DNA of 64,000 nucleotides from Styela clava. Its lineage: Eukaryota. Under the pieces are notes generated by a model. The model did not search any database and had not been told where the DNA came from. It saw only the letters and a list, made by a program, of their open reading frames with translations. Within the stretch, counting starts at the first letter, position 1; each line of letters starts with the position of its first letter. Made by a program: the position numbers and the translations under genes. The stretch covers positions 8,990,001 through 9,054,000 of the forward strand of contig NC_135259.1 in the NCBI RefSeq assembly GCF_964204865.1, given 5' to 3'. Shown here piece by piece: positions 862 through 23,856 of this stretch.

Positions 862-2662
862 ATGGCAAGCTTGGAGCTTTACATCAAGGTAATCTAAGGA
901 AATAATATAAGACCATAAGAAACATGAATTACGTGCATTATAGTAATTGACGGTTTCATACGGGAATGATCGTATTCTAAAGAATTACTTTTTGTAAACT
1001 TACCTATATTTGTGACCGATATTCATCCGTAGGCTCAATATGACGACGGAACAATAAGCTTATAACAGACTTTAGTAAATGGCCAGATGATATATTATGT
1101 AAATTTTCGTATAATATGGTTCTATTGATAGATGATATATTTTTGTGTCCCATCATATTTTTAAGTAATGAGTATATGTAGGTTTAAATATAAAAGTCTA
1201 ACGAGGTTTTTGTTTTTTTAGATTGTTGCATTATGCTCCGTCTGTCTTATCAGCGTATCTTCATTTGACCCTGAGTAAGTGTTTAGTTATGTTCGCCAAT
1301 TTTTCGTAATATATTTATCGGCGTTTTAAGATAGATTGAATTATTAAACTAATATCTAGTATTAATGTATTAATTAAATGTCATACATTGCATAATTTAG
1401 GGTAAAATTAATTCTGACTAGTGCGGTGCTAAAGAATTTAAAAAAAATTATTTATTTTGTTAAAAAATAACATTCATACAGAATTTTGGAATGGTATATA
1501 TGTCTATTTATTCGTATAAATAATACTCTTCATTAAAATCGTACGGTTCTTTAACAAATATTATCTTTTTCCTATAGCTCAGAGTTTATAAGAACTCACA
1601 ACTGCAAAGTCAATAAAACAGAAACAGTAGATGATGGATTTGCTTCTTATTACTTGCATGAGTGAGTACCGAATACATATTTCAACTTTCTAAGACAGTG
1701 TAAAAATGAGTCTGAATTTCCTACGTGCTTTGATTTATTTATCTGTTTTATTACAAAGCTAGTGATATTCTTATTCCGGCTGAGTAATACCACTCGGCAT
1801 TAATATAATTTTAGCTAGACACAGATTCCACATGTTTGTCGCAAAGAGCAATACTTTTTTATATTTTGCTTGGAGAATAAACTAGCTAATTTATACTTCC
1901 CTCCCTTTATAAAACCTTGCAAAATTTTACGATTCATTCATCTACGATATCCGTATTTTCAGGGTTAATTGTATAAACTTAGAGCCAAGTTCTTTCCCAA
2001 GCGCCATATGTTCATCCACAAGATGTCGCGAACCTATAAATGGAAAACCCTTGTCTGGCAAAAGATACGAACCAAAAGAAGTATTGTTTAAACTACACTT
2101 TGACAGTCGTCTAAATGGCAAATTCACAAAATCACTAACAGTTGCATGCAGGTATGTTTTTTATTTCATATTTTATTGCAATATTTAAATTACCCAATAT
2201 ACTAAAAATGCTAACTAGCATAAGAAATTGGTGTAATATTTAACCTCTCAATAAAACAAAAGTTGGGCAGCTATATATTGATAAACACAAGATTGAAAAG
2301 TAAACTATAATATGTTTTTCAACAAAGATCATTCTGAAAATGATTTTGTTTTGTTTTTTCTATTTTCAGTCAACTATCAAAAGTTAATTTAGATTTCAAA
2401 AGAGTATCTTATATTAAAGGTGTATGATTCCTCTTCGCCTTATTAATTAGAAATAGATCATACAATACTTCTTATGGCATCATAAATAATGAAATTTCAA
2501 ACAATAAAAGTGAACCAACATTTAATATTTTACTTTAGATGTGTCAAAGTCGAAAAATTGACTAAACGGCGAAAAGGAGGACGGGGCCGAAAGGGAGGAA
2601 AAGGCAAAGACAAGAAATCTCGTCGAGGAAAAAAAGCGAGAAAAGCTCACACAGACTCATAG
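862..2662 (+). CDS. IL-17-like secreted cystine-knot protein, cluster gene 1 (5 exons, 158 aa, polybasic C-terminal tail)
   Basis: Exons 862-888, 1222-1274, 1578-1661, 1963-2151, 2539-2662; all GT-AG and in frame. Protein: MASLELYIKIVALCSVCLISVSS-FDPDSEFIRTHNCKVNKTETVDDGFASYYLHEVNCINLEPSSFPSAICSSTRCREPINGKPLSGKRYEPKEVLFKLHFDSRLNGKFTKSLTVACRCVKVEKLTKRRKGGRGRKGGKGKDKKSRRGKKARKAHTDS. Signal peptide, C-x4-C and terminal VACRCV resemble IL-17 EAxC..C and VGCTCV. Confidence 0.85.
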
Positions 2663-3365
2663 TGCTTCATTGCCGAACTATTCAGACGTGATTGAAATTG
2701 AAAATGTTTTGTTATCTATTATTTATATATTATTTATCTATTTTTTCATGATTTCGTTTAAGGTAAAAATATTTAAAGCTGACTTTTGTTTTCACTATAT
2801 TCATACATATATATGAAATGCAATATTTTTTTGGGGAATCCAAGTTTGCTTCAGTGTTAAATCGTATAAAATATTTTCAAAAGTAATTATATTTATTATA
2901 TTTTCATGTATTTATTTATCAATTCTATTTATTATTTCCACTGAAAATTGTTCCTTCTTTTAAATATTTTTATAATTTTAATCGACCAAATTTATAGTTT
3001 TCTATTAGCTATTATTTCAACTGGTTTTATCGAAGTCATGGTGCTAAACTTTACATAATTTAATATATTTGTTATATTTGTGCTTCTAATAATTTTAAAT
3101 GAATTACTTTCTGCATAACATGGGCATCTATGATATAGTTGTAGATATGAAAAAGTTGAGTGGATAAGTTAATAACCGTTTTTTGAGGGATTTTGCTTAT
3201 GAGTGAAGTGTGAGTGCGAGTGGAATATTTACCTACGGCGGTAAGAACGATTACATTATCGTCACCACGATAATACTTATTATCTCATGCTTGAGCTGCG
3301 CTCTCGTTATATTGTTCTCTCACCTGTCACGGAGAATAACCTCATGCTTATTACAGACTTTAGTG

Positions 3366-3772
3366 CAGGAGTCGGAAACCTTTTGTCGCTCGCGTGCCAA
3401 AATTAAGGGGTGCGAGTCATTGACGGGCCGCACATATTTTTAGAAAGTTGAAAACCGAACGGATGATACGTTTTATAATAAAAATGAAGCAGTGATACAT
3501 CTCTCGAATAGAATATTGATTTATTTTCTCAATGCATCTCAAAAAATTGCATAGCATCTCAAAAAATTTCATTTGAATATTTTCGGCGCCATTGTACCCT
3601 TTGTATTTAGCATCACCTCTTCTGCGTTTAGTTGCCATTAATTAAACGAGTTCAATAAACGAGGAATTATGAATTTTAATATAATTCAGGGTACACGTGT
3701 CTCACAATAAATTCTGTTACGTATCATTCTGTTGGTCAAAACAGCTGTTGTGCTACTATAATTCAGTGAAGT
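3366..3772 (+). mobile_element. hAT/Charlie-type MITE, truncated copy
   Basis: Starts CAGGAGTCGGAAA; the interior (GGGCCGCACATATTTTTAGAAAGTT...GTCAAAACAGCTGTT...TATAATTCAGTGAAG) matches the complete copy at 51200-51613; the right TIR is absent. Confidence 0.7.
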
Positions 3773-4819
3773 GAATGAATTAATATTTTATAAATGGAAT
3801 TCGTTAGATTGCTGATTTATTGTAGTATGTTTTTATGTGACTCCTGTTTTAAACAAAAGGTTGTACGTATACGACGAATCTTACATGCTAATGTCTTTCG
3901 TGTTTATGTTCTATCCGCTAGGGGGTACACGAGAGGCAATTTATAATTGTTGATAAAATGACATTACATTTTCTCACCGTTCTCTGGCCCTCTATTTGAT
4001 AACTTTCAAATTGGAACGTCTATGTACCATTAATGGTTTTAAATGAATATGGTGGGTGTATTCATTCACTTTTGAATTTGATGCAATGTATTTTTGAATT
4101 TTAAAGTGAGATTGAGATAAATTCACGTTATAAGCAGTAAAAATAGACAGAAAATGGTTCAAATCCACGATAACAAAAGCTACTTTAAAATTTTTTATAG
4201 ACCAAAGTAAAATGAGCCGTCAATTAATGGTATGACGTAAAATTAGATTTTTTTTTCATAAAACCGGCGTTTGTAGTGTATATGTGTATAATATATATAA
4301 TATCTCCGTATTAATGTGATAACAAAAATTTGTTCGTAGTTTTCCAAATGCATTTGAGTGGCTTCGTGATACTTGGCGTCACATCAATTCAAGATATTTA
4401 AATTGTCCAGCGCAATACTCATAAATGAGAGAAAAAAGATGAATAATTGGCTTCCAACATTTCCCACACTCTACAGGGGGGGTTTTCGACGACGGAGTTC
4501 CGCAGTTACATTTCAGGATTAAGTTTACATTATTAAGTATAATTTTTCACGGGTATAGCAAATGTTATTAAACTTGTATCATTGTGTTTTGACAGTTTCA
4601 CATTATTAGAGAATGATTGTATAAATGTGTAATATATATTTATTTATATTTTATACAAATTTATATAGCCCTGCAGCCTTACAAGTATACTGTAGATAGG
4701 TGTGTAAAATAACGTATTGTAAACTATTGTATTGGGGTTCCCCAAACCTCCAGAATATTCCATAGAAGTTCCACTCCGTCTAAAAGGTTGAAAATGACCC
4801 GTTTATTGATTACATTCAA

Positions 4820-5346
4820 CATCGTTTCCCAAACCTATTTTCCCGGAACACCTACGCTTTTATCTCGCCACGCGGAACACCAAAAAATAAGAAGGTAATA
4901 TTGATAATGAAAGAATTGTGTAATGGATTTACCTTGTGCTCAACTTGCACAACTGGCTTATCGCGACATCTTTTGAGGTTTTCAGCTTTATTCAAACAAT
5001 TCATTGAAAAGGGTGCTCTCCAAAAATTTAGTCTATTGTAAAATAAAAAAGTTTACTTCAACCTTACCAATTGAAAAACTAGGCCGATAGTTAACGATAT
5101 TCAACGGTTCACAAAAATACCATGCTTTGCATACTGGCACGAGACCTGTTTACCTGCTTAGATAGCAAGGCCTGTCTGCCTTTATTCGCCAGTTGAAAGA
5201 CAAATTTACGACCCAGAGGCGTCGAAGTACGACCAAGATCGCCATGGCGGCCAATTTAATTGCAATTTCGATTACTGTTCCGCGGAACACTCCAAAGTAG
5301 CTCGCAAAACAGTAGTGTTCCGGGGAACACATTTTGAGAAACGCTG
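4820..5346. mobile_element. hAT-like MITE
   Basis: Imperfect TIRs CATCGTTTCCCAAA / TTTGAGAAACGCTG with subterminal GGAACAC repeats at both ends; no convincing TSD. Confidence 0.55.
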
Positions 5347-6087
5347 GACTACAGCTTTCCACAATGAGACTTATTCTCAGCACAATAAAACACCAGGATC
5401 GAGTATTTATTAATGTAAATCATTTTTTTGCATACGGGGGACTGGTCATGAATAAGCGAAATCATTGACACTGGTTTTGAAAAATGAACTTTAAGAACAG
5501 AATATTCGTTAATTGGCGTGGATTATGTTTTTATTCATAAATACAATATTGTCCAATGCTTTATTTTAATCCTAAATACTCCACGTGATCTGACGTTGGT
5601 ACAAGTTTTTTCACAGGTCAACAAGTTTGTCAGTGGTAAAGTACGTTCCATATTCAAATATTTCGTCATATACAATAGCAAATTAGAAATGATGTTATTT
5701 TCAAATTTGGAAATAGTTGTCGCTTAATAACGTTCGATTTCATCAGAGTCGGTCTATTTGGTTTCTCACTTAGATTTTGGAATGTTGTGGCTATCGTAAA
5801 AGGGCTTTACCCCATCGGTAACTTTTCATATTTCGAAATATTTCGTGGGCGTGACTGTATTGTTTGCGAAGACCAATCAAATGGTAGTTATCAAGAATAT
5901 TCCCAGCTATGTAGAATCATATAATCATTTTTGACATTCATTGCATGATATATTTGTGATCTGTACCCAATAAAGCTTACCGATTTTAAAATATTAGTTG
6001 AACTGTAGCACAGCGGTAAAGAAAGTAAACTTTGTGTATCTCACGTGGGATATTAGCGCGGAATACTTACCGACATCGTTAAAAATG

Positions 6088-6179
6088 GTTACATCATCGT
6101 CACCACAAAAACACTTATTATCTCACGCTTGAGTTACGCTGTCGTTATATCGTTCTCTCGTCTGTCGTGGGGAATAACC
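6088..6179 (+). promoter_or_regulatory. Putative bZIP / TTCTCTCGT / NF-kB module upstream of gene 2
   Basis: GTTACATCA 6088-6096, TTCTCTCGT 6153-6161, GGGGAATAACC 6169-6179. Confidence 0.5.
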
Positions 6180-6446
6180 TTCACGGAAAAGCCGTATTTG
6201 TTCGTCAAATTATCGCCGCTTTAAATCGATAACTATACTATACTGCTAACCAAAAAGTGAGATTCGGCTGAAACCCCCTATTTAGATTATGTATTATCCG
6301 CTAAACTAGATATATAAACGACAAGACAGAATGTTCATCAAAGCAGTTAAACGAGATATCGTACATAGAAAGGTATCAGACTACGAGTTTATAATATCGA
6401 GAATTCTACTCACTATTTATAACATAGAAAAGCATATTCAACCGCA

Positions 6447-8145
6447 ATGTCAAGCTTAAAGCTTTACGTCAAGGTAAGCCGTAGAAATAATATCATACCA
6501 TAAGAAACATGAATTATGTGCATTAGTGATTGACGGTTTTATATGGGACTGATCGTATTCTAATAAAATAACTGTTCGTAAATGTACATGTAGCCTATTT
6601 GTGACCGATATTGATCTGTAGGCTGAATATGACGACGGAGTAGTATGATTATAACAGGCTCTAGTACATGTCCAGATGATATAATATGTAATTTTTTAAG
6701 AGAAGATGGTACTAAATATTTTGTAAAATATGGTTGTATTGATAATGATATATATTCATGTGCCATCATATTTTTGAATAATAAGTACATGTGAGTGCTA
6801 ATATAAAATTTTAACGTGGGTTTTATTTTTAGATTGCTGCATTATGCTCCATCTATCTTATCAGCGTATCTTCATTTGACCCTGAGTAAGTGTTTAGTTA
6901 TGTTCACTAATTTTTCGTATTATCGGCGTTTTAAAATAGATTAAATAAATATCCAGTATTAAAGTATTAATGAAACGGCATATTTTGTAGATATTGGCAA
7001 ATAATTCAAATGCTCTTCAACAATATCGTATGGCTTATTAACAAATTCTATTTTTTTATAGTTCAGAGTTTATAAGAGCTCACAGTTGCGAAGTTGTCGA
7101 ATCAGAAAAAGTAGATGATGGATTTGCTTCCTATTACGTGCATGGGTGAGTACCCAGTGCATATTTCAAATTTACAAGAGGGGGTTAAAATGAGCCTGAA
7201 TTTTCCTCGTGTTTGATTTATGTATCTGGTTTATTATAAAGCTAGTGATTCCTTATTCCGGTTGAGTAACAACACTCGGCATATTAATATACTTTTAGAT
7301 GGACACAGTGTCAACAGGTTTGTCACAAAGGGCAATACATATTTAGTTTTTGCTTCAAAAAAAGGACAGCCCTTATGCAAATAAATGTATTCCTCCCTAC
7401 CATTAAAAAACTCAATATAATTTTACAATTTATTCATTTACGGTATTCGTATTTTCAGGATTGAATGTAAAAACTTATCGCCAAGTTTCTTCCGCAACGC
7501 AACATGTTCATCCACAAGATGTCGCGAACCTATAAAAGGAAAACATTTGTCTGACAAAAGATACGAACCAGAAGAAGTATTGTATATTCAAAACTTTGAC
7601 AGTCGACTCAGTGGAAAACTTTCACAATCACTAACAGTTGCATGCAGGTATGTTCCCTTTTTATATCATATTTTTAAATCACTAAAATACCAAAAGTATT
7701 AACTAAAATCAGACGATTGATGTAATATTCAACGTCTCAATAAAAGTTGAGCAACTATATATCGACAAACACAATATTGAAAAGTAAACCATAATATTTG
7801 TTCAACAAAGATCATTCCGAATAAGACTTTGTTAATTTTATTTTTTCCAGTCAACTATTAAAAATTGATTAAACATTTGAAGGTATGCTAAATAAAACAT
7901 GCATGATAATTCCTCCTTGAGTGCTTAACTTACACATAGAGAATACAATACCATTTGTAGTATTATATGCAATGAAATTTCAAACTAGAAAAGTAATCCG
8001 GAATTTAATTTTTTTTATCTTCAGATGTGTCAAAGTCGAAAAATTGACTAGACGGCGAAAAGGAAGAAAGGGCCGAAAACGAGGAAAAGGCAAAGACAAG
8101 AAATCTCGTCGAGGAAAAAAAGAAAGAAAAGCTCACAGAGAATAA
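6447..8145 (+). CDS. IL-17-like secreted cystine-knot protein, cluster gene 2 (recent duplicate of gene 1, polybasic tail)
   Basis: Exons 6447-6473, 6833-6885, 7062-7145, 7459-7647, 8025-8145. Protein: MSSLKLYVKIAALCSIYLISVSS-FDPDSEFIRAHSCEVVESEKVDDGFASYYVHGIECKNLSPSFFRNATCSSTRCREPIKGKHLSDKRYEPEEVLYIQNFDSRLSGKLSQSLTVACRCVKVEKLTRRRKGRKGRKRGKGKDKKSRRGKKERKAHRE. Confidence 0.85.
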
Positions 8146-10435: not shown

Positions 10436-10484
10436 ATTACGTAAATATTCTCTCGTTCTTACACACGTGTTAAAGGAAAGCCCC
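10436..10484 (+). promoter_or_regulatory. Putative bZIP / TTCTCTCGTT / NF-kB module upstream of gene 3
   Basis: ATTACGTAA 10436-10444, TTCTCTCGTT 10448-10457, GGAAAGCCCC 10475-10484 (reverse complement GGGGCTTTCC matches GGGRNWYYCC). Confidence 0.55.
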
Positions 10485-10735
10485 AATATTGTCGACTGCT
10501 GTGACTGCAACATTCGAAATAAAATAGCGCCCTAAAATAGACCGGAAAAGAATCAGAGTTCCAGTATTAAAGCCAGATTTTTTTTTAAAAATATTCCTAG
10601 ATACGAAAAAAAAGGAAAGTAATTTCGCAATGTATCGATCAAAGCTTTATAAAGCTCGCATGTCGGTCGAATTATCATTAAAATCATTAAACAGATGAAA
10701 CTAACAAAACAAGAAAAAGCGAGAAGAAATAATTT

Positions 10736-11929
10736 ATGAATTCCTGCACTAATAACATGGTAATGGATTTTTTTTTTAAATCGGCATACAGTATGTGATT
10801 AAAGTTATATTAATGTTGTATATTTTTGTTCTCACAGACAACTTCTGCGACTTTATTGGCTTTTCTTACTATGTTTGCATGGAGTACGACAATGGCCCTT
10901 TCAGGGTAAGTAGATCGAATTTGTGTGGTTATTTCGTAACGTGGGTGAAGCATTATAAATGCATATTTAGTTTAGTCGGCTCACAAGTCAAGCTCGTTAT
11001 GTATCCAAGGTACAATCTGTATTGTTTGTTACCCGGACGTGTATTATCAAGTCGCCCGTAATTTCTCTGCGCTATATATTAGCACTATATCATCTAACTA
11101 AATCATACCATCATATTTAAACCTAATTCAAATTTGATAGAATTTTTTTTTGAAAAAATACAATTGCTGTATGAATATAATTCAAAAGTATTACCTAACG
11201 TTCTATAATATTTCAATTCCAGGGCGGAATTTTCAAAAAATCATCGTTGTCAAGAATTTCTGGATGTTGAACTAAATGATAGATATGCACCGCATACCAT
11301 GAGATGGTAAGAAATAACTGAGATTGATTTGTGCCTGCTCTTGATAGAAATATTATATTAAAAATTATTAATTCATCGAACATTTTTCCGCAGTTTGTAT
11401 AATTTGAAGTTGATTGTTGAGGTAAAATATCAATTTTATCTCAACTCCAACATATCATCATTCATGGGAAAAATAATAATGTGCTTATACCGTATATACA
11501 CTAACATGATCCTTGTGATTTTGTAAAGGTTCGAATGTACGAACATGGTTCCCTCAACATACTCAAATACGACTTGTCCACTAAGATGTAGAGATCCTGA
11601 AACAAATCAGTTTCTACCTCTTTCAAGTTTCCGACAGCTGCCTGTATTTGCATGTGAAAGTTTTGAGGTCAGGAGAAATGGAAAAATTTTCAAAGAATCT
11701 GTTGCAATTGTAAAAGGGTGCAGGTGAATTAGTTTTTACTCAACATTTTTTTGGTTGAAGTATTTTAACATTGTAAAAAGTAAATAGGGATTTCTTAAAA
11801 AACAAGTCCACTACATTTCAATTAACACTACAGGATAAGCTATCAATTTTAATTTATTATTTTTTCATTTTATCTAGTTGTGTGGAAGCTGCAACTGCAA
11901 CTAGTAATACATATAGCGTCATGTGTTGA
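10736..11929 (+). CDS. IL-17-like secreted cystine-knot protein, cluster gene 3 (extra internal Cys and C-terminal Cys)
   Basis: Exons 10736-10759, 10838-10905, 11223-11306, 11529-11723, 11878-11929; TATAAA at 10648. Protein: MNSCTNNMTTSATLLAFLTMFAWSTTMALSGAEFSKNHRCQEFLDVELNDRYAPHTMRWFECTNMVPSTYSNTTCPLRCRDPETNQFLPLSSFRQLPVFACESFEVRRNGKIFKESVAIVKGCSCVEAATATSNTYSVMC. Confidence 0.85.
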
Positions 11930-14451
11930 TAACAAAGAAATGATATTACAACGAACACATGCAACGTAGCTCTGGATAACTATGACGAACGCACAAATAT
12001 TTTCCATTTTTATGTTAAAGATTTTTATTTAAAAATTTATATTTTTATATTAATATTTCATTTATTTATTTATCATTATGCAATTTTATTCACATTATAT
12101 TTATTTTTTATTGACGAATACTGCATACACGATGGGTTGCAATATTTCTACGGGAAAATTGTGCAATATATGCAATAGTATTCGAAAATTGCTAATTTAT
12201 TTACAAAGAAATGTACTCTTTTAGTCTATACAAGTATTTTATTTATTTAATCAATCTTTTGCACTCAAAAATATTTTAAAAATGTTATATTTTTTAGTAT
12301 CTTCATAATAAAAAGTTTTATTAATATTTATTTAACAGTTTACTTCCATTGTAATAAACATTTATATATTGAGCAGAAATATCATTTGTATTGTAATTAA
12401 CTGCAGTGAAATCAGGAGGATTTATCGTAAAAAATAAACTGAGGGCACGTGTTAGAACTTATACTATTAATATCTTATTCACTAGTGCTACTATATATTA
12501 AACATAATAGCTTGTGAAATAGAACAACTGCATCCGCAAGCAGAAAGTTCCATAATCGAATATCGGTTAGAATGGTTTAAATAACAAGATATTAGTGCTC
12601 AAATATACGGTCACGTAGGCCACAACAAAGTAGTACGGGTATCAATTCGGTACTCATAGTCTTCAAGACTTCGACTGACCACCAGAACGCGAAAACCTCC
12701 ACACGCTGTGTAATTTTTAATTTTTATGACGGGATCACACATGCATTAAATACCGTATACCACACAGGCCGCAGGTATTTTTGAAACAAATAAAAGTAAT
12801 AGCCTTCTAGCGACAACGAAAATACATTAGTTGGTACAGTCGTTCTGAAGTAGATCGTTTTGAAACCTTTACAAAGATCTCAAATTGCGTGTTCCTCGTC
12901 ATTACTTTGCAAATCACGAAAGAAGCGTCTAATGACATCATTTATTATTACTTTAACAAGAAACTCTTCTCCTCCTATTTATTCTAATGCATTTGAAGAA
13001 CATATGTTTATTTGAAAGTGTATATGTATATATATTATTTTTTTCCTTATTTATGTACTTACATATTCATAACATATAAATATATATATATATATCCAAT
13101 TGGCATAATCAAAGACAGTCAAAGATATGTTTAATCGTAGGAAAAAAATCAAGTGTCATTTGCTTAATCATTGATTCTTTATTACGATCTGGTGCATACT
13201 ACCGAATCTTGTTTGCCAAATATCATCATGCTTTAAAAGAATTTTTCCACACTTCTTAATAACTCCCATAACGCGATAGGACATGCTTCTTCTCTTTTGT
13301 TATAATTCAGAACGTTTCATTACTAACTAAAAGTGATCAATTTCACCCGACAATGAACAGGGAGGCATAGACACGGCCATTTAGTATGTATATGATCACA
13401 AAACAAAATGTTTATTCCATATCACAGATAGTATAGGAGGATATAATATCTATTCGCATTGTCAAGAAAGCAAATTATGAACTTTAGATACAATAATAAA
13501 CAACGGATGATTGTTGACGATATGATTCGCCTCTAGTGAAATCGTTTGTATTCCCCAAAGCGCAATTATTTCAACTAAATATGCTTGTTGCATCACCACG
13601 AATTTTAAATGCCACTATTGCTTTCAGGGAGTAATTAGACGACATTGGTTTCGAATGCAATCAACACGTAAATGTTATTCACGTTCTACGTGACGAATAA
13701 GATACTGAGATGACATACGTCAAGTTTTCAGCAGTTTTTATCAACGCAGTTTGTTGCAAGATTTGAATGTACCCGAATTACTTACTTTGTTATAAAGACG
13801 TTTGTCACGAGGTGTTCTAAATTGAATGAAAGGTATCCAATTCAGATTGTTTTCCTGTATTAAAATATTATAAAATGGAATATAATGAAAAGTTCAAAAA
13901 ATAACGATCTACATTCTACACAAACATCGTTTCAATTTAATTCATTTTAAATATGCGTCAACATGAACATGCATTCTAAAAATATTGAAAATAACAAAGA
14001 TGATAGCTAAATGGATATTTTTTTTATAAATTGTTGTTGAAAATCACGTTGTGAATTAACTTGGATGGCGTTTTGTGATGGCATATTTCTCGTTTTTCAT
14101 GCTGCTGTCATACAGAGAGTTCAGAAGAATTTCAGATCAAATTGCATGCGCAATCCCAGGAGTGTCATTCGTAATGCTTTGTAGAAACCTGCAGTACCAA
14201 TCGAAGTTGCGATTACGTAATTTGGAAAGTACCTTCCAAGATATTATACGTAGGGAATATTGGTTTTCCTGTATCAAAACAATATTTTTCCAAATTAACT
14301 TATACTCCGGTAAAAACTTGGATATTACTAAAGGTAAATATGGGAAAAAGTTTCTGTATAAATAACACTCGCGCGCTAATGAGAAATGTAAGAAATCTGA
14401 CCAGTGTGTTGAAGAAAAGGAGAATTTACTTTGGAGAAAAGACAAAGAAAC

Positions 14452-15684
14452 ATGAAGATCTCATTTATTAGCACAGCCGTAAGTTTTATAATTTTTGTTA
14501 GATCTCAAATATATTTGTTCTAATATACGCATTGTGTTGTTTAAAACTTTCCGATTTCTTTTTTTCACAGACAAAAATCTTTACAATGATTATTACTATG
14601 ATACACTTTTTTGGACACAACACATTAGCATTCGATCCTGAGTAAGTTGTAATTGTATTATCTACTTTCTTGTGATTTATATCAAATTAAACAGGTATTA
14701 CTTTGATGTACAAAACTGTTATTACGTGTTTTTAACTTTTTTCAAATATATTGATTTTAGCTCTGAATTTTCAAAACTGTACGATTGCAAGCATTTGGAA
14801 ACGTTGGATATTGAATATAACAATGGATTTGCTCCCTACACCCTGCAATGGTAAGTAAAACAAAATAAATTACAAATGTTGTTTTTTAGAAGTAACACTA
14901 CAAGTGCAGCAATCAAAATACGAAAAATGAAAAATTCAACTCAGAATATAATATATAAGAAATAAAGTTGCGCAAATGCTCTACCTGTAATCTTTAATGC
15001 TAATATTTTCAGGATTGATTGTGGACGCAATATCTCTCCTTCAATGTATTCCAACACAACATGTTCTACAAGATGTCAAAGATCCTTCTACTAATCAGTT
15101 TTTATCCGAAATATATCAACAGCAACCGATTCTTGTTTGTGAAACTTTTCAAATCCGAAAAAGAGGACAAATTTCAAAAATTAGAATTAAACTGGCCAAG
15201 GGCTGCAAGTAAAACATTTTATTTTTTGCTTATTTTTCTTATGTGATTCTATCTAAAAGCTGGCAATGGGACTGGTAATAAAACTAAAATATATAAAATT
15301 AGAATATAAATATGTCCTAACCCTAACCTGGTACACATACCGCTGGAGTACCATATTTTTAACATTTTAACCCAGTTTTCTCTCTCACTTAGTGTTTTTT
15401 TTCTGGTAGGGAAAATCTGATGTTACTGCTAATTATCAGATATGCTTGCTTATAAAACACATTTTAAGCAGTAGGAAAGATATCAAGATAAAATTATTTT
15501 AATTAAGTCTAGTTTCTATTTTAATTTCATAAAAATTTAGATGTAGAAAAGTCTAAATCTCTAAATTCTTACACACTATATATCAAGTAGCAATTAATAA
15601 ATTATTTGAATTTAAAAGAAATCTTTTTCCAGGTGTGTCAGATATTCTGACGAATACAGAGATAATATTGAAATTGACTGCTAA
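14452..15684 (+). pseudogene. IL-17-like cluster gene 4, frameshifted in exon 4 (pseudogene, null allele or sequencing error)
   Basis: Exons 14452-14478, 14571-14641, 14761-14850, 15013-15208, 15633-15684. Exon 4 is 196 nt against 195 nt in the closest paralogues. TGTCAAAGAT at 15074-15083 has one extra base, giving TAA at 15092-15094. Corrected protein: ...FDPDSEFSKLYDCKHLETLDIEYNNGFAPYTLQWIDCGRNISPSMYSNTTCSTRC(Q/K)DPSTNQFLSEIYQQQPILVCETFQIRKRGQISKIRIKLAKGCKCVRYSDEYRDNIEIDC. TATAAATA at 14357. Confidence 0.75.
15315..15355 (+). repeat. CCCTAA-containing dispersed repeat fragment (also at ~41418-41460 and inside 62103-62580)
   Basis: CCTAACCCTAA(C/A)CTGGTACACATAC is present at both ~15317 and ~41419. 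Confidence 0.55.
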
Positions 15685-17133
15685 GATATTTTATGGTGAA
15701 AAGGAGAATATTATTCAAGGACAGCATTATGAGATTCTAGTTTTATTTTTTACTATTTAAATTTCCCTCGTGTATGCAATGTTAAAACCTTATTTAATAT
15801 TTATTCGCACATAGCTTCTATTATGCTCTCATTTTATTTATTACACTTTAATTTATCTAGTAGTCACTTATATTTATGAGATTTTCGTAGAAACATTCGT
15901 CATTACTAACTTGACGTTGAAAGAAAGTATATTGTGTATAATTGGTTGCAAATTTTATTATAAAATGTTCTAATGTATGAGGTTTTGGATTACATTACAT
16001 GTGAACCTTGAATACAAAGAAATACTTATTCAAAAATTCAGTAATACAAATGCCAATCATCATGCAAATTTCAGTTGCATATAGAATTTAGGAAAGCGTT
16101 AGGACCTTGATGGCTTAACGGTTTTCCCCGTAATATGAAGAATTACGTTGAGCTTTGAAGTGGTATCATAGCTTGTGAATAATATGAAGCTTACAATATT
16201 GCAACATGTAGTGAAATATTCCTAATTATAGCCAAGTAAATAGATATTGCCGGACATGTTTTGGTTCTAAAATTGCGGAACTACAATCGCTCACCAGCTT
16301 AACATATAAAACTTCCCTGGTTTTATACTAGGTCACAGATATCCATGATTGATATTTATCTAGAAACCATGCGTACGACGTAATTAATCTAATGATGCAA
16401 CTAAGTTGCGTCTAATGTCCAAAAGGTAAATTTTGCGACTTTGGACTCATGAAATTTTGTTGCAAAATATCCCTAATAAGTTTTCCTTAACTATTTATGT
16501 ATCGCTTTTGCATTGCTCAATAGAAATTGACGAAAATATTGAGGCTTGTCTTACGCCGTAGATTTAAATTAATAAACAACAATGGGATCTACTTACACGG
16601 ATAATAACAATACTCATGCGTCGAAACATAAAATGAAGTATATTATACATTAAATAAAATACAGACAAATAATTTCTAAAAATTAGTTCGATAAGCTCAA
16701 CCCAGTCTTTCAATTTAGAGTAATTTTTATTTTTATTTTCCATTCAAGCTTGTAATCGAAAATCAGCAAATTTGCAACTTTCAATAACTTGAAGTTAAAT
16801 TTTACATTGAATAAAAGTTCGAATACATTTATCAAATAGATATTCATAAAACATTATACATTAAATATCTTTAGCGCATAATTTGTGCTTGAATATTTAC
16901 CGCGCAAAAATTAGTATATGATCAGTTTCAGATTTACTAGAATTGATAAATGGACCTAAAATATATAATATCTTCAGCATGGGAGTCTTTTTTGGATTAC
17001 GAATCTGATTCTTTTTCGTAATATATTGTTATATGATATTCATTTGAAGGCGTTTTATATAACTGTTCATTTTATGTATATACCTTTTCTAACACAATTT
17101 TATTCACATAATTAGAAAAGGAATTCTCGAGTT

Positions 17134-17197
17134 AATTTCCCCAAAATGACATACAAACGAGAGAAATGATACTAAAACGAGAGAATAATGTTACAAT
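17134..17197 (-). promoter_or_regulatory. Putative module upstream of gene 5 (inverted)
   Basis: AATTTCCCC 17134-17142, AACGAGAGAA at 17156 and 17176, C/EBP-like TTACAAT near 17191. Confidence 0.45.
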
Positions 17198-18282
17198 ATG
17201 GAGAAGACCTTACTTGCCCGTTTGTACATGCGTGACACATTTAAAACCAAGTTGAATAATTCAATATCAAACTAAATTGGTTTATGTCACGATTAGGCCT
17301 ATTTTGGGTTATACTGTTACGAAATCAAAACAAATCTTGTCAAAGGGCTAATTACATTAAACCATGAACTACACGTCAGTCATGTGATAGAATTAGGTTT
17401 TGAATGTTGAACCGTGAACATTATTTATTATGATTCACGTTACATTTGTATACATTCGAGACAAACCATGCAATCTCAACATTCTTAAATTTATGATACT
17501 AACATAATGGAGATTAGAAAAGCAAAGCCGAAGTTTAGACCTTGAATTCTATTTTCAGACGTTTTGTCATAAACGATAGAGTATGTTACTCTCTGGTTTA
17601 GTTATATTCGATTTATTTTGCAGTACTTCATTAATTTCAACAATCATAATAGGGGAAAGGGAATTCCAAATTTTTTCCGAAATTTTTTGTGGGCGAAATA
17701 TTCTTTAAAATATAATAGCGCAAACACGGAATCGATACCAACAGCATGTGCAAAAATGTTTAAATTTCAGGTAGATTTAAACACCAGCGAGTGGGTTACG
17801 CTCTAACGATTTTAAATTTGATAAACCTCACATCGAAGGACAAAAGTTAACAGTCAGTTCAAACTTGAACATTGACTGGGGCTACTGGAGGACAGAGTAT
17901 TATCAATTGTTACATCATATCTAACACAAATATTCCACTGAACCCACGTACGATTCACGCTGAATGACTTTTGTTTAGCATGTCGGAAAATAACCGCCAT
18001 CAAAAAAAAAATATCTATAATATACTATAATTGTTCAATTTACCAAAATATATCAGTTTTGGCTAATATTTATATTGGCAATTTCCCGTTTTGGGGTTGG
18101 TAATATCCACTTAGATAGGTATAAATTCTAGGAAAGTATCTCCTAAATATCACTCTACGAAAAGACATTAAGACATTGACATCATTGAAAAAGATTGAAA
18201 AACAGACATACGCACTGAATTTACAACTTGGATCAAACGTTGGAGTTTTCTTTTAAATTTTACATGATAAAAACTGACCAGG

Positions 18283-19475
18283 ATGGCAAACTTAAAAATC
18301 CAGTTAAGGGTAAGTCAAGATAATTCTGAGCCTAAATGTCATATCTCGGGCCCTAAACCTACCTCGAAAGCTTTTAATATATTATTCCTAAAGAATTTCT
18401 ACTAATCACAGCAAATAGTTCAAAATTTATTCAAATTATACTCGATTTTTTACAGTTATAATACCGAGTACAATGATCAATAAATCGGAGCAATTTTGTC
18501 GTGACATAGTCGATAAAATTTAATGCACAGTAATCAAATGTTTATTTTATCGTCTTATTGAGACAGTAGATATCTTCAAATGTTCAAGTCGGTAAATGGA
18601 AATATAAACCTATTTTTTTATATTTAGATTTCTACTATTTTCACCATTTGCGTCTTGAGCATATCAGCATTTGACCCCGAGTAAGAGTCTAAATATTATC
18701 TAAACTTAATTTCTAAACGTGAGGATTTCATAATTATAAATCAAAAATACTTTTATTGTTGAACTTCCAAATCGTAATTCCTCAAATAGATATGAATAGA
18801 ATTAGAAATACTATATATTTAATTTATAAATCCATTTTTCTATTACTTTTTCACACAAACTTAATCTACTGTCACATTTTACGTTAACAGTTCAGAATTT
18901 TTAAACACGCACAAATGCAAAGTTGTCGAAACGGAATCAGTGACCAATGGATTTGCAACTTATTACGTAGAAAAGTAAGTGAAATATCTTCTAATACCAT
19001 TTTATACGTATTTGCAATATCATTGTATATCATAGCCCAAAGTAGCTCAATTACTTAATGCTTTCAGAATTGAATGTAGAAATCTTTCACCATCATTGTT
19101 TGTAAACGCGACATGTTCATCTGCAAGATGTCAGGACCCTCAAAACGGCAAACTTCTGTCTGGTAGAGAATACAAACCAGAAAAAGTAGTCTACGTGGAA
19201 CATTTTGGAAGCCGAAACGTATCGATTACACAAACATTGACAGTTGCATGCAGGTGTTTACTTATATTTATATTGGTAATATTCCATGCTTCTGGAATGG
19301 TTTCTCACTAACATCCCGAATAATTTTGAAAATAAAAATAATAATGTTATTTGAAACGACAAAAAGTTAAAACAAAAGGATTAATCCAAATTTTATATTT
19401 ACTCATTGAAGATGCGTGAAAGTTGATAACTTGCGTAGCCAGGAATTTGTAGGAAGGGGACAAAGAAGGGGATAA
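18283..19475 (+). CDS. IL-17-like secreted cystine-knot protein, cluster gene 5 (gene 1/2 subfamily, truncated basic tail)
   Basis: Exons 18283-18309, 18628-18680, 18891-18974, 19068-19253, 19412-19475. Protein: MANLKIQLRISTIFTICVLSISA-FDPDSEFLNTHKCKVVETESVTNGFATYYVEKIECRNLSPSLFVNATCSSARCQDPQNGKLLSGREYKPEKVVYVEHFGSRNVSITQTLTVACRCVKVDNLRSQEFVGRGQRRG. TATAAAT at 18120. Confidence 0.83.
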
Positions 19476-20644
19476 GCAATGATAGAAAAGCTCGGCGAGG
19501 AAAAAAAAAGAAAAAATACCAATGACTCGTAATTTCACCTAACGTTTTCAACAGAATACCTAATTGAGCAAATGGCCGTGTTTGACGCATAGTTTAAAAA
19601 CTAGAAAAGTATTCTATTTTATTGTTTTAGCAGTAAATCAATCTTGATTTGTTACTTCATTGAAGTGTATAATAATTGTTGATTTACGGAGGTATCAAGT
19701 TTTTGCTTATTATCTATTATATGTGCTGAAATATTTTGAGTTCCGTATTATTTCAAATGTTGCTTATGTTTCATGTTGCTTATACCTTTTATATTATGCA
19801 ATGTATATTACTCAAATATGGATCGTATTATTTTGAAAACCTATCATGCCGACTTTTATACAAAGCCGCCGCAGAAGACGCGGCGAATAACTCTAACTCA
19901 ACAATGAAACTTTAAAATTACACGTGTGTGTCACAAAAATCGTCGGGATTCTATAATAGCTCTAACAGTGAGCCGATTGTCAATTGAGTATGTCAATTTG
20001 AAATCATCGATGGTTACATTGAGATTAAGAGCAATAAAAGGTCTGTGTTCCGAATCGCTAAGAGCAGAAATTCCGGCCAAAGTAAAATGACCATTACGAC
20101 ACCTGTTTGCGCATGCAGCCATTATTAGCACTTTCGTAATTTCCATGTAAAAACCTGTACACAGTGCCGCCTTATGTAATACGATTGTTATATCGCAAAG
20201 ACGTAATAGTAATATTAAGATAATTTCACTACATATCGAATCACAAGTTTTGGGTCTGAATAAATTTCAGTCGACTGACCTCTAAGTTAGCGAGGTTTAT
20301 TTTAGTAAATATATAGTTTTACAATAAATGTGTATAACTACGGATTTTATGAAATTATCCTCTTAAGTAGTCTTCACATTTTTGAATTAGATTGATTTTT
20401 AATGTTTTTCACATTTACTTTCCTATGAAGCTCTTATGGAGCGGACAAATGCAGGGTGAAGTTGGTGTCGAGAATTAAGTACTTGTTTCTTATGCTATTT
20501 TATATTTTTTCTATTTTATGCCAAATTTCAATGAAGTGGTATTCCCATCGTCGATACAACTTTAGAATACAGCTTTAAAAGGTAGACGGCAGCAGGATGT
20601 CGAAAATGTACCAGCATGGCAAGCATTGAGGTCAATCGCGAAGC

Positions 20645-20735
20645 GGAAAGTCCACACAAATACATTCCCCCGTTGTCGAGAATCATAAGGAAAAAGTGTA
20701 ATAAAACGAGAGAACCACAAATCAGCTGATGCAAC
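20645..20735 (-). promoter_or_regulatory. Putative module upstream of gene 6 (inverted)
   Basis: GGAAAGTCCA 20645-20654, ATTCCCCC 20664-20671, AACGAGAGAA 20705-20714, TGATGCAAC (C/EBP-ATF composite) 20727-20735. Confidence 0.5.
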
Positions 20736-22347
20736 TCGACAAATGTATTGTAGACAAATATCACAATGACGTGTTCCCGATGCTAGTTGAAGTGACCCGC
20801 GCACAATAAACTCTAAAGATACTGTTACAAAGCAAATAATTCGAATGTACAAATTCCAAGCGACCTATTTTAAATGTAAACTTACTTGATCTGAAATTGA
20901 TGTATTGATTTGACCCGCCAGTAATAGATATAAAAATCCCCCCATATGAATGAGTGCGATACCCCAATTTATTTTTTTGTAAATTATATCTTTTTCTATA
21001 ATGTCTTTATGAAAGAGCATAAACGTTAGGATAATAAAAATCTTTTGCAAAAAATTGTTAAAATATTTCTTTGTAACGCTTCCCCATTATTGACTATATT
21101 ATTATTGTTCACTATTGTTTGTATTAGCGGAACTAAATATATACCATACTCACGGGGAATTTTGCACTCTAAGTGAGACTGTAGTTTAATAAATTGGACA
21201 TTGACATGAAATTTCTAATATCCTATTTGAGCTTTTTTTGCGTCTACGGAAAAAGTAATTTCTTTTCTGATTTTTCATGGTAGTCAAAATTTTGTGGAAA
21301 TTTGCAGCGGGCATTATCAAAGGTTCTATATAATCATCTTTGTTATGAAAAATCGCCCAAGAAAAATCAATTACATATAAACTAAACATTGTGTTTTTTT
21401 ATCGAATAAAAATGTGTGATGGCTGGGGTGTACCAGCATTGTGGAAGGGTATGCCATTTCGAAAAAGGTTGACAATTAAGCACTGTCCTAGGTTATTTCA
21501 TTTGTGAGAACCATCTTTAACGAATGCGTCACAAAGATCCATGGAATCAATTATGTCGACTTGGTAGGCTTTTGAATGGCATGTTAAATACATTATTGCG
21601 TCATAATCAAATTTTGAATTCTGTGAAATACGAAATTTCAGGCAATATACGTACATTAATAACCCAAATAGATTGTACAGTAAGTTAAATTCAAAATAAA
21701 CTTCAAGTTTAAGAAACCCAGCTGTAACTAAAGCTGTAACTGAAGGTCAAAAACAACCTGAGAAAATATAAATGAAACAATTAAAAATTAAATGCCGAGG
21801 CCCCCAAGACCCGAGACCCCAGGCTTCCGCCTACCTTGGCTAATGACCTTGACACAATAGCTAAATATATCAAAAAAGAAGACAATTGTGCAATATTTCA
21901 TCAGATAATATAGTTAAAATATAAGTTTTGGAATGGAAGACCAATAAATCGACAAGTCAAAGTACAATATGCATATAAAAATTTGCTAGCTAATTACGTT
22001 GACTGCATATTTGGTTTGTGTCTCTATGTTTAAGCACACACGAATGAAGCTGATCAGAATAGGGGGAAATTAAAGACAAATATCAGGCTTAATGATAGCA
22101 TATTTCTCTGTATAAAACAAACATACCAAAAGAAATGTTTGACAGATGAAATCATATACATGACTTGTGATTCGATGGCTTTTCAGTTAATTAAAACAAT
22201 ATTTACATAGTTTTAGGACCTTTGATTGCTTCTCTGGCTTTAAATTGAGTGCGATGCCTTTTCTAGGTATACCTTGTTTAATGCAGCCCGAAAGACGAAC
22301 AGCATCATTTTTATGAAATATAGAGCAACGGCAAAAATAGGTCTAAA

Positions 22348-23856
22348 ATGGAAAGGTCATGTTTACAAGTAAGGATTATTATCAACAGTATCTAAATTAA
22401 ATTATAATATTTAAATTTAAACTATTGACTAGCATGTTAGAAATTTAAAATGCTTAATTTAAAAAAGCTAACTGACTGAAGTATCTGGTTTTACTTTTTG
22501 TTGCAGATTTTTGCGACATTGCTTCTTCTTTACGCAATAGTGCCATCAACACCAGCGTCCGGTACTGAGTAAGTATATTATTTCATGTATTCAAGTGTTG
22601 TCATGACCAAATTCGTTATGCTCAAATAATTCAAGTTGATATTTGGATTTGCAATTTTAATAATATATTTACATACAATACCACACTATCCAGCTCAAAT
22701 CGGATGAACGTAGGCTACATTCATACAACGGGAAATTGATAAATATATTCAATCAATTTCGACGTCATCTTCTTCATTGTTTCAAAACTCAGATAAGACT
22801 TATTGTTTAACAAATCTAAATAGTTTCATTTTATTACAGCTTTCCGTTGTCTTCTGCTCACGAATGCTTAGTAACACATACACATAGACGTGTAAACGGA
22901 TTTGCTCCTTACTACACAAAACAGTGAGTTTTTTTCCTAATTTAATTTTTTAGTTTAAAAGTTTATTTGTCAGAACATTCTTCTTTCTTCATCAAAAATG
23001 GTTGTTGGTAGTTTCACAAGATTTTCTGTTAGATATTATTTATACAATGTAGAGATTTTTGCCAAGGAACTTTCTAAGAAAAAAAGGTGTCAAAAATAAA
23101 CTTTCGCTTTGATAGAATCTCTCTCTTCGAATTTTAATTTGACAGTTTTGATCTAACTTGTTCCAAGTCTTTTGTCAACCGCTACTTACTGGCATCTTTG
23201 ACTCATTTTTCACATAAATACACAGTTCCTACAGTGTCTGTTGACGCCTTCATTTCTCCCATCTGATAATAGCCTAGAACTTCAAGTTAAGCAAATCAGT
23301 AAATATAACTACAAAAATAAATTTTTTAGAATTAAATGCAAGCATTTTGAATTTACAAACGCAACATGCTCTTCCACTTGTCGAGATCCTCGGACGGGAA
23401 AACTGCTGTCAAAGAAAAAATATCGTCCGGACCCAATTTCTTGTGTTCAAACTTTTGACAGCAGAATTGAAGGAAAAATAGAGCTTTCCGTAACAATTTC
23501 ATGCAGGTGAAAAATTGAACTTATATATTTATATAAGCTCGCCTATTCCTAAAGATGAGGGTAAATAAATTTGGAAGTGAATCGTATTATTTATATCAAT
23601 ATTAGGCAATATTGAAATCATAAAATGCTAGCTTCCTAATTTTTAAAATATTTATTTAATTAGTTAAATATTGAGCAACAATAAAGTTGCCATAATAAAA
23701 ACTTAATGTATTCAATTACTTCGGGATACTAGATGCATTAAACGGGGAAAACAAACAAAACAAAAGCATGGAAGAAAGCAAAAGACAAGAACTGGCCAAA
23801 GAAAGAACGAAAAAAAAAAGCAAAAACAAAAAATCATAAATGAACCATATTTCTAG
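22348..23856 (+). CDS. IL-17-like secreted cystine-knot protein, cluster gene 6 (Lys/Gln-rich basic tail, one extra Cys)
   Basis: Exons 22348-22368, 22507-22568, 22840-22923, 23330-23506, 23733-23856. Protein: MERSCLQIFATLLLLYAIVPSTPASGTDFPLSSAHECLVTHTHRRVNGFAPYYTKQIKCKHFEFTNATCSSTCRDPRTGKLLSKKKYRPDPISCVQTFDSRIEGKIELSVTISCRCIKRGKQTKQKHGRKQKTRTGQRKNEKKKQKQKIINEPYF. TATAAAA at 22111. Confidence 0.82.

What the first reader, a model, noticed from the sequence alone, without database searches (positions are those of the whole stretch)
2539..23856. Exon-5-encoded polybasic tails on genes 1, 2 and 6
Seen: the last exon adds ~38-aa K/R/G-rich tails (gene 2 RRRKGRKGRKRGKGKDKKSRRGKKERK; gene 1 similar) or an unrelated K/Q/R-rich tail (gene 6). 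Other paralogues have polar/acidic (gene 8), Arg/Trp-rich (gene 9), Cys-ended (genes 3, 4) or minimal (gene 10) tails. Established: the cystine-knot factors VEGF-A and PDGF-A use exon-encoded basic tails for heparan-sulfate and matrix retention; such tails are not typical of vertebrate IL-17. Inference: a modular system tuning diffusion range, matrix anchoring, or direct antimicrobial or nucleic-acid-binding activity.
Basis: partly seen in the sequence, partly recalled or inferred. Interest (0 to 1): 0.7.

Follow-up and report, generated by a model that had tools for sequence, protein, structure and literature searches.

The report
Sea-squirt cytokine array with basic tails
In a sea squirt, a tandem array of about 33 genes for likely secreted, IL-17-like signalling proteins ends each protein differently, and seven copies carry a long, strongly positive tail that would likely tie them to sulfated sugars near where they are made, a trick known from vertebrate chemokines and growth factors but untested here.

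Summary
The window holds 10 genes of a tandem array of about 33 five-exon genes in Styela clava. They are divergent IL-17-like cystine-knot proteins: the predicted fold is closest to IL-17A (Z 8.6), but all are below the Pfam IL17 cut-off. The K/R/G tails of genes 1 and 2 are real. Both models equal RefSeq proteins, one probable-RNA contig joins gene 2 exon 4 to exon 5, and the charge (+16, +18) exceeds base-composition shuffles (p 0.007, 0.004). Five more copies lie upstream; the scan noted one before (e1-9507954). Three corrections. (1) Exon 5 also encodes the last knot cysteine, so the tail cannot be skipped as in PDGF-A; tails differ between paralogues, as in CCL21 and CCL19. (2) Gene 6's exon 5 is probably a diverged homologue of the gene 2 tail, not unrelated. 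It is unverified: weak acceptor, a RefSeq model that stops before it, no RNA cover. (3) Gene 5 carries the same tail cut by a stop. Basic tails occur in 17 of 48 relatives. Best reading: glycosaminoglycan binding and local retention (0.55, untested). New variant of a known kind.

The parts
862..2662 (+). Gene 1: five coding exons (862-888, 1222-1274, 1578-1661, 1963-2151, 2539-2662), 158 aa IL-17-like protein
   Evidence: Model identical to RefSeq P0005
2539..2662 (+). Gene 1 exon 5: last knot Cys plus 39-aa K/R/G tail, net +16
6447..8145 (+). Gene 2: five coding exons (6447-6473, 6833-6885, 7062-7145, 7459-7647, 8025-8145), 157 aa
   Evidence: Model identical to RefSeq P0003; fold
8025..8145 (+). 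Gene 2 exon 5: last knot Cys plus 38-aa K/R/G tail, net +18
   Evidence: one probable-RNA contig joins exon 4 to exon 5 (run X2, record 15)
11878..11929 (+). Gene 3 exon 5: 15-aa neutral tail ending in Cys; core has an extra Cys
   Evidence: RefSeq P0009
15633..15684 (+). Gene 4 exon 5: 15-aa acidic tail ending in Cys; exon 4 is out of frame in this assembly near 15077 but whole in another RefSeq record
   Evidence: P0011
18283..19475 (+). Gene 5: five-exon open model; exon 5 (19412-19475) gives a 19-aa tail, net +3, cut by TAA
19476..19535 (+). Remnant of the basic tail behind the gene 5 stop, now 3' untranslated and in a shifted frame
   Evidence: DNA score against gene 2 exon 5 is 52, above all 1000 shuffles; alignment
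23733..23856 (+). Gene 6 candidate exon 5: Cys plus 39-aa K/Q/R tail, net +14; probable diverged homologue of the gene 2 tail; use unverified
   Evidence: RefSeq P0022 stops at the exon 4 donor
30835..30928 (+). Gene 7 exon 5: 29-aa mixed tail, net +3
   Evidence: RefSeq P0007; probable-RNA contig over 30848-31045 without a junction
34574..34670 (-). Gene 8 exon 5: 30-aa polar tail, net -1
   Evidence: RefSeq P0008; spliced joints in run X3
39523..39583 (-). Gene 9 exon 5: 18-aa Arg/Trp tail, net +5
   Evidence: RefSeq P0015
49150..49177 (+). Gene 10 exon 5: 7-aa short basic end, net +4
   Evidence: RefSeq P0012

Best explanation
Genes 1 and 2 and five upstream copies encode likely secreted, divergent IL-17-like proteins whose last exon gives both the final knot cysteine and a 38-39-residue K/R/G tail that is predicted to be unstructured and would likely bind sulfated glycosaminoglycans, holding the protein near the secreting cell. 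Shown: gene models, charge, exon layout, spread of tail types over the array. Predicted: IL-17-like fold, disordered tail. Inferred: secretion, binding to heparin, heparan or dermatan sulfate, and shorter range than the 18 downstream copies that end three residues after the knot. Range would be tuned by paralogue (where the stop falls in exon 5), not by exon skipping. One basic tail probably arose or was kept in the ancestor of genes 1, 2, 5 and 6; it was amplified in the gene 1 type, cut by a stop in gene 5, and is diverged and perhaps unused in gene 6.
For: Models equal RefSeq proteins. A probable-RNA contig joins gene 2 exon 4 to exon 5, while a DNA contig runs through the intron. N-terminal hydrophobic stretch and no later one in 9 of 9 proteins checked. 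AlphaFold2 with 48 rows: mean pLDDT 84.5; residues 131-157 at 56-67 with no secondary structure. Top three VIA rows include IL-17A Z 8.6 and IL-25 Z 8.1; NGF 5.8, VEGF 3.0. Charge above composition shuffles and above 152,277 of 152,278 background windows. Gene 1 versus gene 2: exon 5 has 10 of 118 mismatches and no gap, intron 4 has 76 of 364 and 12 gaps, p 0.002. 13 and 9 overlapping BBXB/BXBB clusters, 3 hydrophobic residues. The tail lifts gene 2's mature pI from 5.9 to 9.9. Basic tails in 17 of 48 relatives, with at least 4 changes forced by well-supported branches, also on unlinked genes with the same intron. Ascidians including Styela plicata are rich in heparin/HS and dermatan sulfate (PMC6627333, passages). 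Precedent: CXCL12-gamma (PMC2040504, abstract), CCL21 versus CCL19 (PMC9866948, abstract), PDGF-A long (PMC3072383, passages).
Against: No binding, localisation or expression assay. dN about equals dS in the gene 1/gene 2 tail (0.092 vs 0.097, 10 changes), and tail dS is lower than in exons 3-4 (0.24-0.30), so the low divergence could be gene conversion rather than selection. Exon 5 is not significantly better kept than exon 4 (p 0.06) or the 3' UTR (p 0.08). The +2 frame of the gene 2 tail is also basic (+16), so A/G-rich DNA does part of the work. No strict XBBXBX motif. The RNA junction rests on one contig of depth 5.4 in one of three runs whose RNA status is a guess; no junction was listed for gene 1 (tables cut). 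The clade of genes 1, 2, 5, 6 has support 19/0 only. Tails of unnamed relatives are gene calls and some may run into introns.
Confidence: 0.55

Rival explanations
1. The tail, attached or released by proteases, is a cationic host-defence element that binds microbial surfaces or extracellular nucleic acid.
For: Net +16 to +18 in seven copies. A review states that heparin-binding peptides of PDGF-A, HB-EGF and amphiregulin kill bacteria (PMC6930736, passages). Two minimal R-x-x-R sites in gene 2. Ciona IL-17s rise after LPS (PMC5465252, passages).
Against: Only 3 hydrophobic residues in 38-39, GRAVY -2.1 to -2.6. No R-x-[KR]-R site in either tail and no R-x-x-R in gene 1. That seawater salt weakens purely electrostatic killing is recalled knowledge. 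Not exclusive with the best explanation.
Confidence: 0.17
2. The tails are near-neutral extensions: stop codons drift in A-rich DNA behind the last cysteine, and recent duplication multiplied one lineage that happened to be basic.
For: Tail length runs from 3 to 39 aa across 33 copies. Gene 5 lost its tail by a stop. Gene 6's charge equals its base composition (p 0.25). dN about equals dS. The six gene-1-type units are near-identical 6-kb repeats.
Against: Genes 1 and 2 exceed composition shuffles (p 0.007, 0.004); background windows average +2.4; no gap in exon 5 in 6 of 6 comparisons with gene 2, against 10-12 in the intron; basic tails recur on unlinked genes and in other records.
Confidence: 0.15
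3. The tail acts inside the cell or at the receptor: packing with granule heparin for regulated release, uptake or nuclear entry, or damping of receptor binding until it is cleaved.
For: Ascidian haemocytes hold heparin in granules (PMC5465252 and PMC6627333, passages). The CXCL12-gamma tail lowers receptor binding (PMC2040504, abstract and section headings).
Against: No localisation data; the receptor is unknown. Same chemistry as the best explanation, different place.
Confidence: 0.13

Closest known systems
Chordate IL-17 family, T2 knot (IL-17A 8dyf, IL-25 7uwj; PMC11087794)
   Same: Best fold match (Z 8.6, rmsd 2.8, 81 aligned); four knot Cys (71, 76, 117, 119 in gene 2) with no Cys at the 1/4 positions; signal-peptide-like start; tandem expansion as in sea urchin (PMC5457136, passages).
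   Different: Below Pfam cut-off (best E 0.0047 among 9 members). C-x3-4-C instead of the C-x-C-x-G-C seen in 10 of 10 canonical Styela IL-17 loci examined. An extra conserved Cys pair (36, 58). An intron inside the terminal C-x-C, absent from those 10 loci, which end within about 10 residues and have no basic tail.
CCL21 versus CCL19 (PMC9866948, abstract)
   Same: Paralogues that differ by a charged C-terminal extension; the tailed one binds heparin.
   Different: Chemokine fold, two genes, tested by experiment; here about 33 genes with several tail classes and no test.
CXCL12-gamma (PMC2040504, abstract)
   Same: Unstructured C-terminal extension, about 60% K/R over 30 aa there and 49-58% over 38-39 aa here.
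   Different: Made by alternative splicing from one gene; unrelated fold.
PDGF-A long form and long VEGF isoforms (PMC3072383, passages)
   Same: Cystine-knot superfamily; exon-encoded K/R-rich C-terminal stretch.
   Different: PDGF-A exon 6 is a skippable tail-only exon of 18 aa; here exon 5 carries a knot cysteine. Fold similarity is weak (Z 2.7-3.1).
Styela clava RefSeq LOC120337097, LOC144428251 and relatives
   Same: These are the genes themselves (P0003, P0005).
   Different: Annotated only as uncharacterized proteins.

Membership tests
IL-17 (T2 type) | Cystine-knot fold closest to IL-17 | tested here: met
   VIA Z 8.6 and 8.1 for IL-17A and IL-25, next family 5.8; all Foldseek rows shown are IL-17A/F/IL-25 entries but none reaches E 0.001; Atlas features 0.91 to IL17 clusters
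IL-17 (T2 type) | Cys 2, 3, 5, 6 present; Cys 1 and 4 absent | tested here: met
   C71, C76, C117 in 48 of 48 rows and C119 in 47; position 50 mostly Pro and positions 92-93 not Cys among the commonest letters; definition from PMC11087794. Disulfides themselves not measured.
IL-17 (T2 type) | Pfam PF06083 above the curated cut-off (24 bits) | tested here: not met
   Gene 2 12.5 bits; 4 of 9 members match, best E 0.0047; gene 9 20.8 bits; 3 of 41 further relatives pass; none of 32 genome hits lies in this array
IL-17 (T2 type) | Signal peptide, secreted | tested here: inconclusive
   Hydrophobic N-terminal stretch in 9 of 9 and N-terminal helix in the model; no signal-peptide predictor or assay
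IL-17 (T2 type) | Homo- or heterodimer | not tested
IL-17 (T2 type) | Signals through a SEFIR receptor | not testable with these tools
   7 SEFIR matches over cut-off exist in the genome; binding not tested
PDGF/VEGF retention-motif system | PDGF/VEGF fold | tested here: not met
   VEGF and PDGF rows score Z 2.7-3.1 against 8.6 for IL-17A
PDGF/VEGF retention-motif system | Basic motif on a skippable tail-only exon | tested here: not met
   Exon 5 begins inside the terminal C-x-C and encodes the last knot Cys; the two listed isoforms of LOC120338200 both keep the tail
Glycosaminoglycan-binding basic tails (CXCL12-gamma, CCL21 type) | Unstructured K/R-rich C-terminal extension with BBXB clusters | tested here: met
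   strict XBBXBX absent
Glycosaminoglycan-binding basic tails (CXCL12-gamma, CCL21 type) | Measured heparin/HS binding and retention | not testable with these tools
   Needs bench assay

The most novel reading that the evidence does not exclude
A large, unannotated tunicate branch of IL-17-like cytokines builds a range-tuning panel out of paralogues. Because the tail exon also holds a knot cysteine, splicing cannot switch the tail, and the array instead keeps matrix-anchored (7 copies), decaying (genes 5, 6), disulfide-tethered (genes 3, 4) and tail-less (18 copies) forms. Heterodimers between them would give graded retention from one locus.
Probability: 0.25. Interest if true: 0.65.

Novelty: new variant of a known kind. 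Interest (0 to 1): 0.4.

Why it matters
Basic retention tails are well known on vertebrate chemokines and PDGF/VEGF, but my searches found no report of one on an IL-17-like protein or of this family. If the tail binds sulfated sugars, the array is a natural deletion series (long, truncated, absent) in a close invertebrate relative of vertebrates, and shows how cytokine range can evolve by moving a stop codon. It also shows that Pfam-based counts miss about 33 IL-17-like genes beside at least 32 canonical matches in this genome. The mechanism itself would be familiar.

Tried and rejected
Single-sequence AlphaFold2 of gene 2 was unusable (pLDDT 37.6). A profile search of PDB sequences gave 4 rows, none under E 0.18. 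Pfam on 9 single exon-4 translations gave no IL17 match. No listed holder was on record as RNA. Exon 5 of genes 5 and 6 had no cover in 4 probable-RNA runs, which is no evidence either way; the tool also skips an A-run at 23795-23840. The acceptor scan missed gene 6's acceptor because of its pyrimidine filter; it was set by hand. One search used exon-5 starts that were one base early for six genes; numbers are quoted. A single origin of all basic tails in the family could not be shown: tails of three unlinked Styela genes do not match genes 1/2 in DNA beyond shuffles (5 of 6 comparisons p over 0.16, one p 0.02), and the 48-row tree is poorly resolved. A tail switched by alternative splicing was rejected for this array on exon layout; the two isoforms of LOC120347241 differ at the N-terminus. 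'Gene 6 tail unrelated' was rejected as probably wrong. Five partial exon-4 matches (38 in all) were dropped before the count of 33.
Full report
Setting. The window is G000:C13:8990001-9054000 of a 377-Mb genome. A search with gene 2 exon 4 returned a Styela clava RefSeq protein at 100% identity. Ten paralogues lie in the window. Over the 384 kb fetched there are 38 exon-4-like matches; 33 were near full length and were examined for exon 5, and 5 partial ones were dropped. At least three of the 33 look damaged (a missing donor, an in-frame stop, a lost Cys).

The observation. Genes 1 and 2 have five coding exons with GT-AG ends, and the models equal RefSeq P0005 and P0003. Exon 5 adds 39 and 38 residues after the last Cys, net +16 and +18. 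Five upstream copies of the gene 1 type, in units of about 6 kb, carry the same tail. In run X2 (probable RNA) one 194-base contig of depth 5.4 joins 7523-7644 to 8022-8093, which is the 7647/8025 junction given three bases that fit either side; a DNA contig of X4 runs through the intron. No junction was listed for gene 1, and the tables were cut. All 18 downstream copies examined have a candidate exon 5 that ends three residues after the Cys.

Chance. Base-shuffled tails that stay open reach the observed charge with p 0.007 (gene 1) and 0.004 (gene 2), but 0.25 for gene 6. Of 152,278 background windows 1 reaches +16 and 9 reach +14. Between genes 1 and 2, exon 5 differs at 10 of 118 sites without a gap; intron 4 differs at 76 of 364 with 12 gaps (p 0.002). 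Exon 4 (p 0.06) and the UTR (p 0.08) are not significantly different from exon 5. dN is about equal to dS in the tail, and tail dS is low, so gene conversion is not excluded. The +2 frame of gene 2's tail is also basic.

Correction 1: exon layout. The last intron falls in phase 2 inside the terminal C-x-C, so exon 5 gives the sixth knot cysteine. Skipping it would break the knot (inference). PDGF-A exon 6, by contrast, is a skippable 18-residue basic exon (PMC3072383, passages). Tail diversity here is between paralogues. Two unlinked Styela relatives on C2 and C14 have the same intron and a basic last exon; a third has a tail-only basic last exon; a fourth, which passes the Pfam IL17 cut-off, lacks the intron.

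Correction 2: genes 5 and 6. Gene 5 has an open five-exon model. Its exon 5 aligns with gene 2's (score 52, above all 1000 shuffles), stops after 19 residues, and keeps the rest of the basic tail behind the stop in a shifted frame. Gene 6's candidate exon 5 scores 38 against gene 2 (p 0.007) and 29 against gene 1 (p 0.016); none of 19,040 background windows, 157 of them A-rich, reaches 38. Basic tails of three unlinked genes served as a control: 5 of 6 comparisons were not above shuffles and one gave p 0.02. The alignment suggests compensating small indels, which is uncertain in A-rich DNA. Whether gene 6 uses this exon is open. Its acceptor scores -0.9, ranks 7th among AG sites in 23530-24400, and only 6 of 43 family acceptors score lower. 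The RefSeq model P0022 reads through the donor and stops, lacking the last Cys. In favour of use, this acceptor gives the Cys in the right phase and an open frame of 40 codons. The four genes form one side of the best tree, with support 19/0.

What the proteins are. Pfam IL17 matches 4 of 9 members below cut-off. AlphaFold2 on a 48-row alignment gave mean pLDDT 84.5, a beta-rich core and a low-confidence tail without secondary structure. VIA ranks IL-17A (Z 8.6, rmsd 2.8, 81 aligned) and IL-25 (8.1) above NGF (5.8), PTTH (5.0), VEGF (3.0) and PDGF (2.7). Foldseek rows are IL-17 entries with E from 0.0024. The cysteine pattern fits the T2 knot that PMC11087794 (parts 1-2 of 6 and passages read) gives as the only tunicate type, with an added Cys pair. 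The genome has 32 canonical IL17 matches elsewhere; the 10 examined have C-x-C-x-G-C, no intron in the terminal C-x-C and short non-basic ends. Seven SEFIR matches exist. I file the family as IL-17-like: it looks like IL-17 in fold but fails the Pfam test, and dimer and receptor are untested.

Wider family. A profile search gave 48 relatives at E 0.001 or better: Styela paralogues, one Clavelina protein, one paddlefish IL-17A/F, and unnamed records (20 looked up). By a threshold I chose (net +6 in 15 residues), 17 of 48 have a basic tail; the best tree needs 11 changes, well-supported branches force 4, and the bootstrap had not settled. Some unnamed tails may be gene-call read-through. An extra core Cys goes with a tail Cys in 14 of 19 rows against 4 of 29 (counted; mainly two clades, so not independent). 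The Cys-ended tails of genes 3 and 4 are therefore likely disulfide-tethered.

Mechanism. The tail is hydrophilic, rich in BBXB-type clusters and raises the pI of gene 2 from 5.9 to 9.9. This matches CXCL12-gamma, whose unfolded 30-residue extension gives strong surface retention (PMC2040504, abstract), and CCL21 versus CCL19 (PMC9866948, abstract). Styela plicata is rich in heparin/HS and dermatan sulfate (PMC6627333, passages). I put retention on sulfated sugars at 0.55, host-defence activity at 0.17 (PMC6930736, passages of a review), neutral drift at 0.15, and granule packing or receptor damping at 0.13. Nothing here was measured at the bench.

Novelty. Six paper searches on Styela, Ciona, ascidian or tunicate IL-17 and on IL-17 with basic or cationic tails listed no paper on this family or tail (listings and abstract starts only). 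The two supplements of PMC11087794 held as text do not name Styela. PMC5457136 and PMC5465252 were read as passages. Subscription journals are mostly outside the library. The scan noted the same tail on an upstream copy (e1-9507954); that note is not independent support, and its mention of the T2 knot led me to PMC11087794. Verdict: a real feature, a new variant of a known kind, interest 0.4.

Noticed in passing
window 15011-15210: Gene 4 exon 4 is out of frame by one base near 15077 in this assembly, while RefSeq P0011 from another record is whole: a null allele or an assembly error.
   Followed up: partly
window 11527-11929 and 15013-15684: Genes 3 and 4, and RefSeq P0016, have an extra Cys in the core and a Cys at the end of the tail; across 48 relatives the two tend to occur together, suggesting a tail-to-core disulfide.
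   Followed up: partly
G000:C13:8961966-8992662: Six near-identical gene-1-type units with a period of 5.9-6.0 kb, three with identical exon 3-5 peptides: a very recent amplification of the basic-tailed form.
   Followed up: partly
L078:2050-2106 (G000:C14, about 10.07 Mb): Unlinked relative LOC120347241 has a tail-only last exon of 18 basic residues downstream of the knot, a layout that could be skipped as in PDGF-A; the two listed isoforms both keep it.
   Followed up: partly
L081-L082 (G000:C1:22957107-22963292): LOC120342946 and a neighbour carry the family's extra Cys pair yet P0029 passes the Pfam IL17 cut-off and lacks the C-x-C intron: a possible link between this family and canonical IL-17.
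   Followed up: partly
L027 (G000:C6:2014716-2014916): A lone copy of exon 4 with an in-frame stop and a stop after the fifth knot Cys: a likely pseudogene away from the array.
   Followed up: no
G000 contigs C1, C2, C3, C5, C8, C10, C19: At least 32 canonical IL17 matches in clusters, far above the three IL-17s reported for Ciona.
   Followed up: no
G000:C13:9061368-9231434: Eighteen tail-less copies in two sub-families downstream, with repeated partial exon-4 fragments between them.
   Followed up: partly
window 3370-3770, 12780-12820 and 15295-15350: High-copy repeats with very deep cover in all four runs laid.
   Followed up: no
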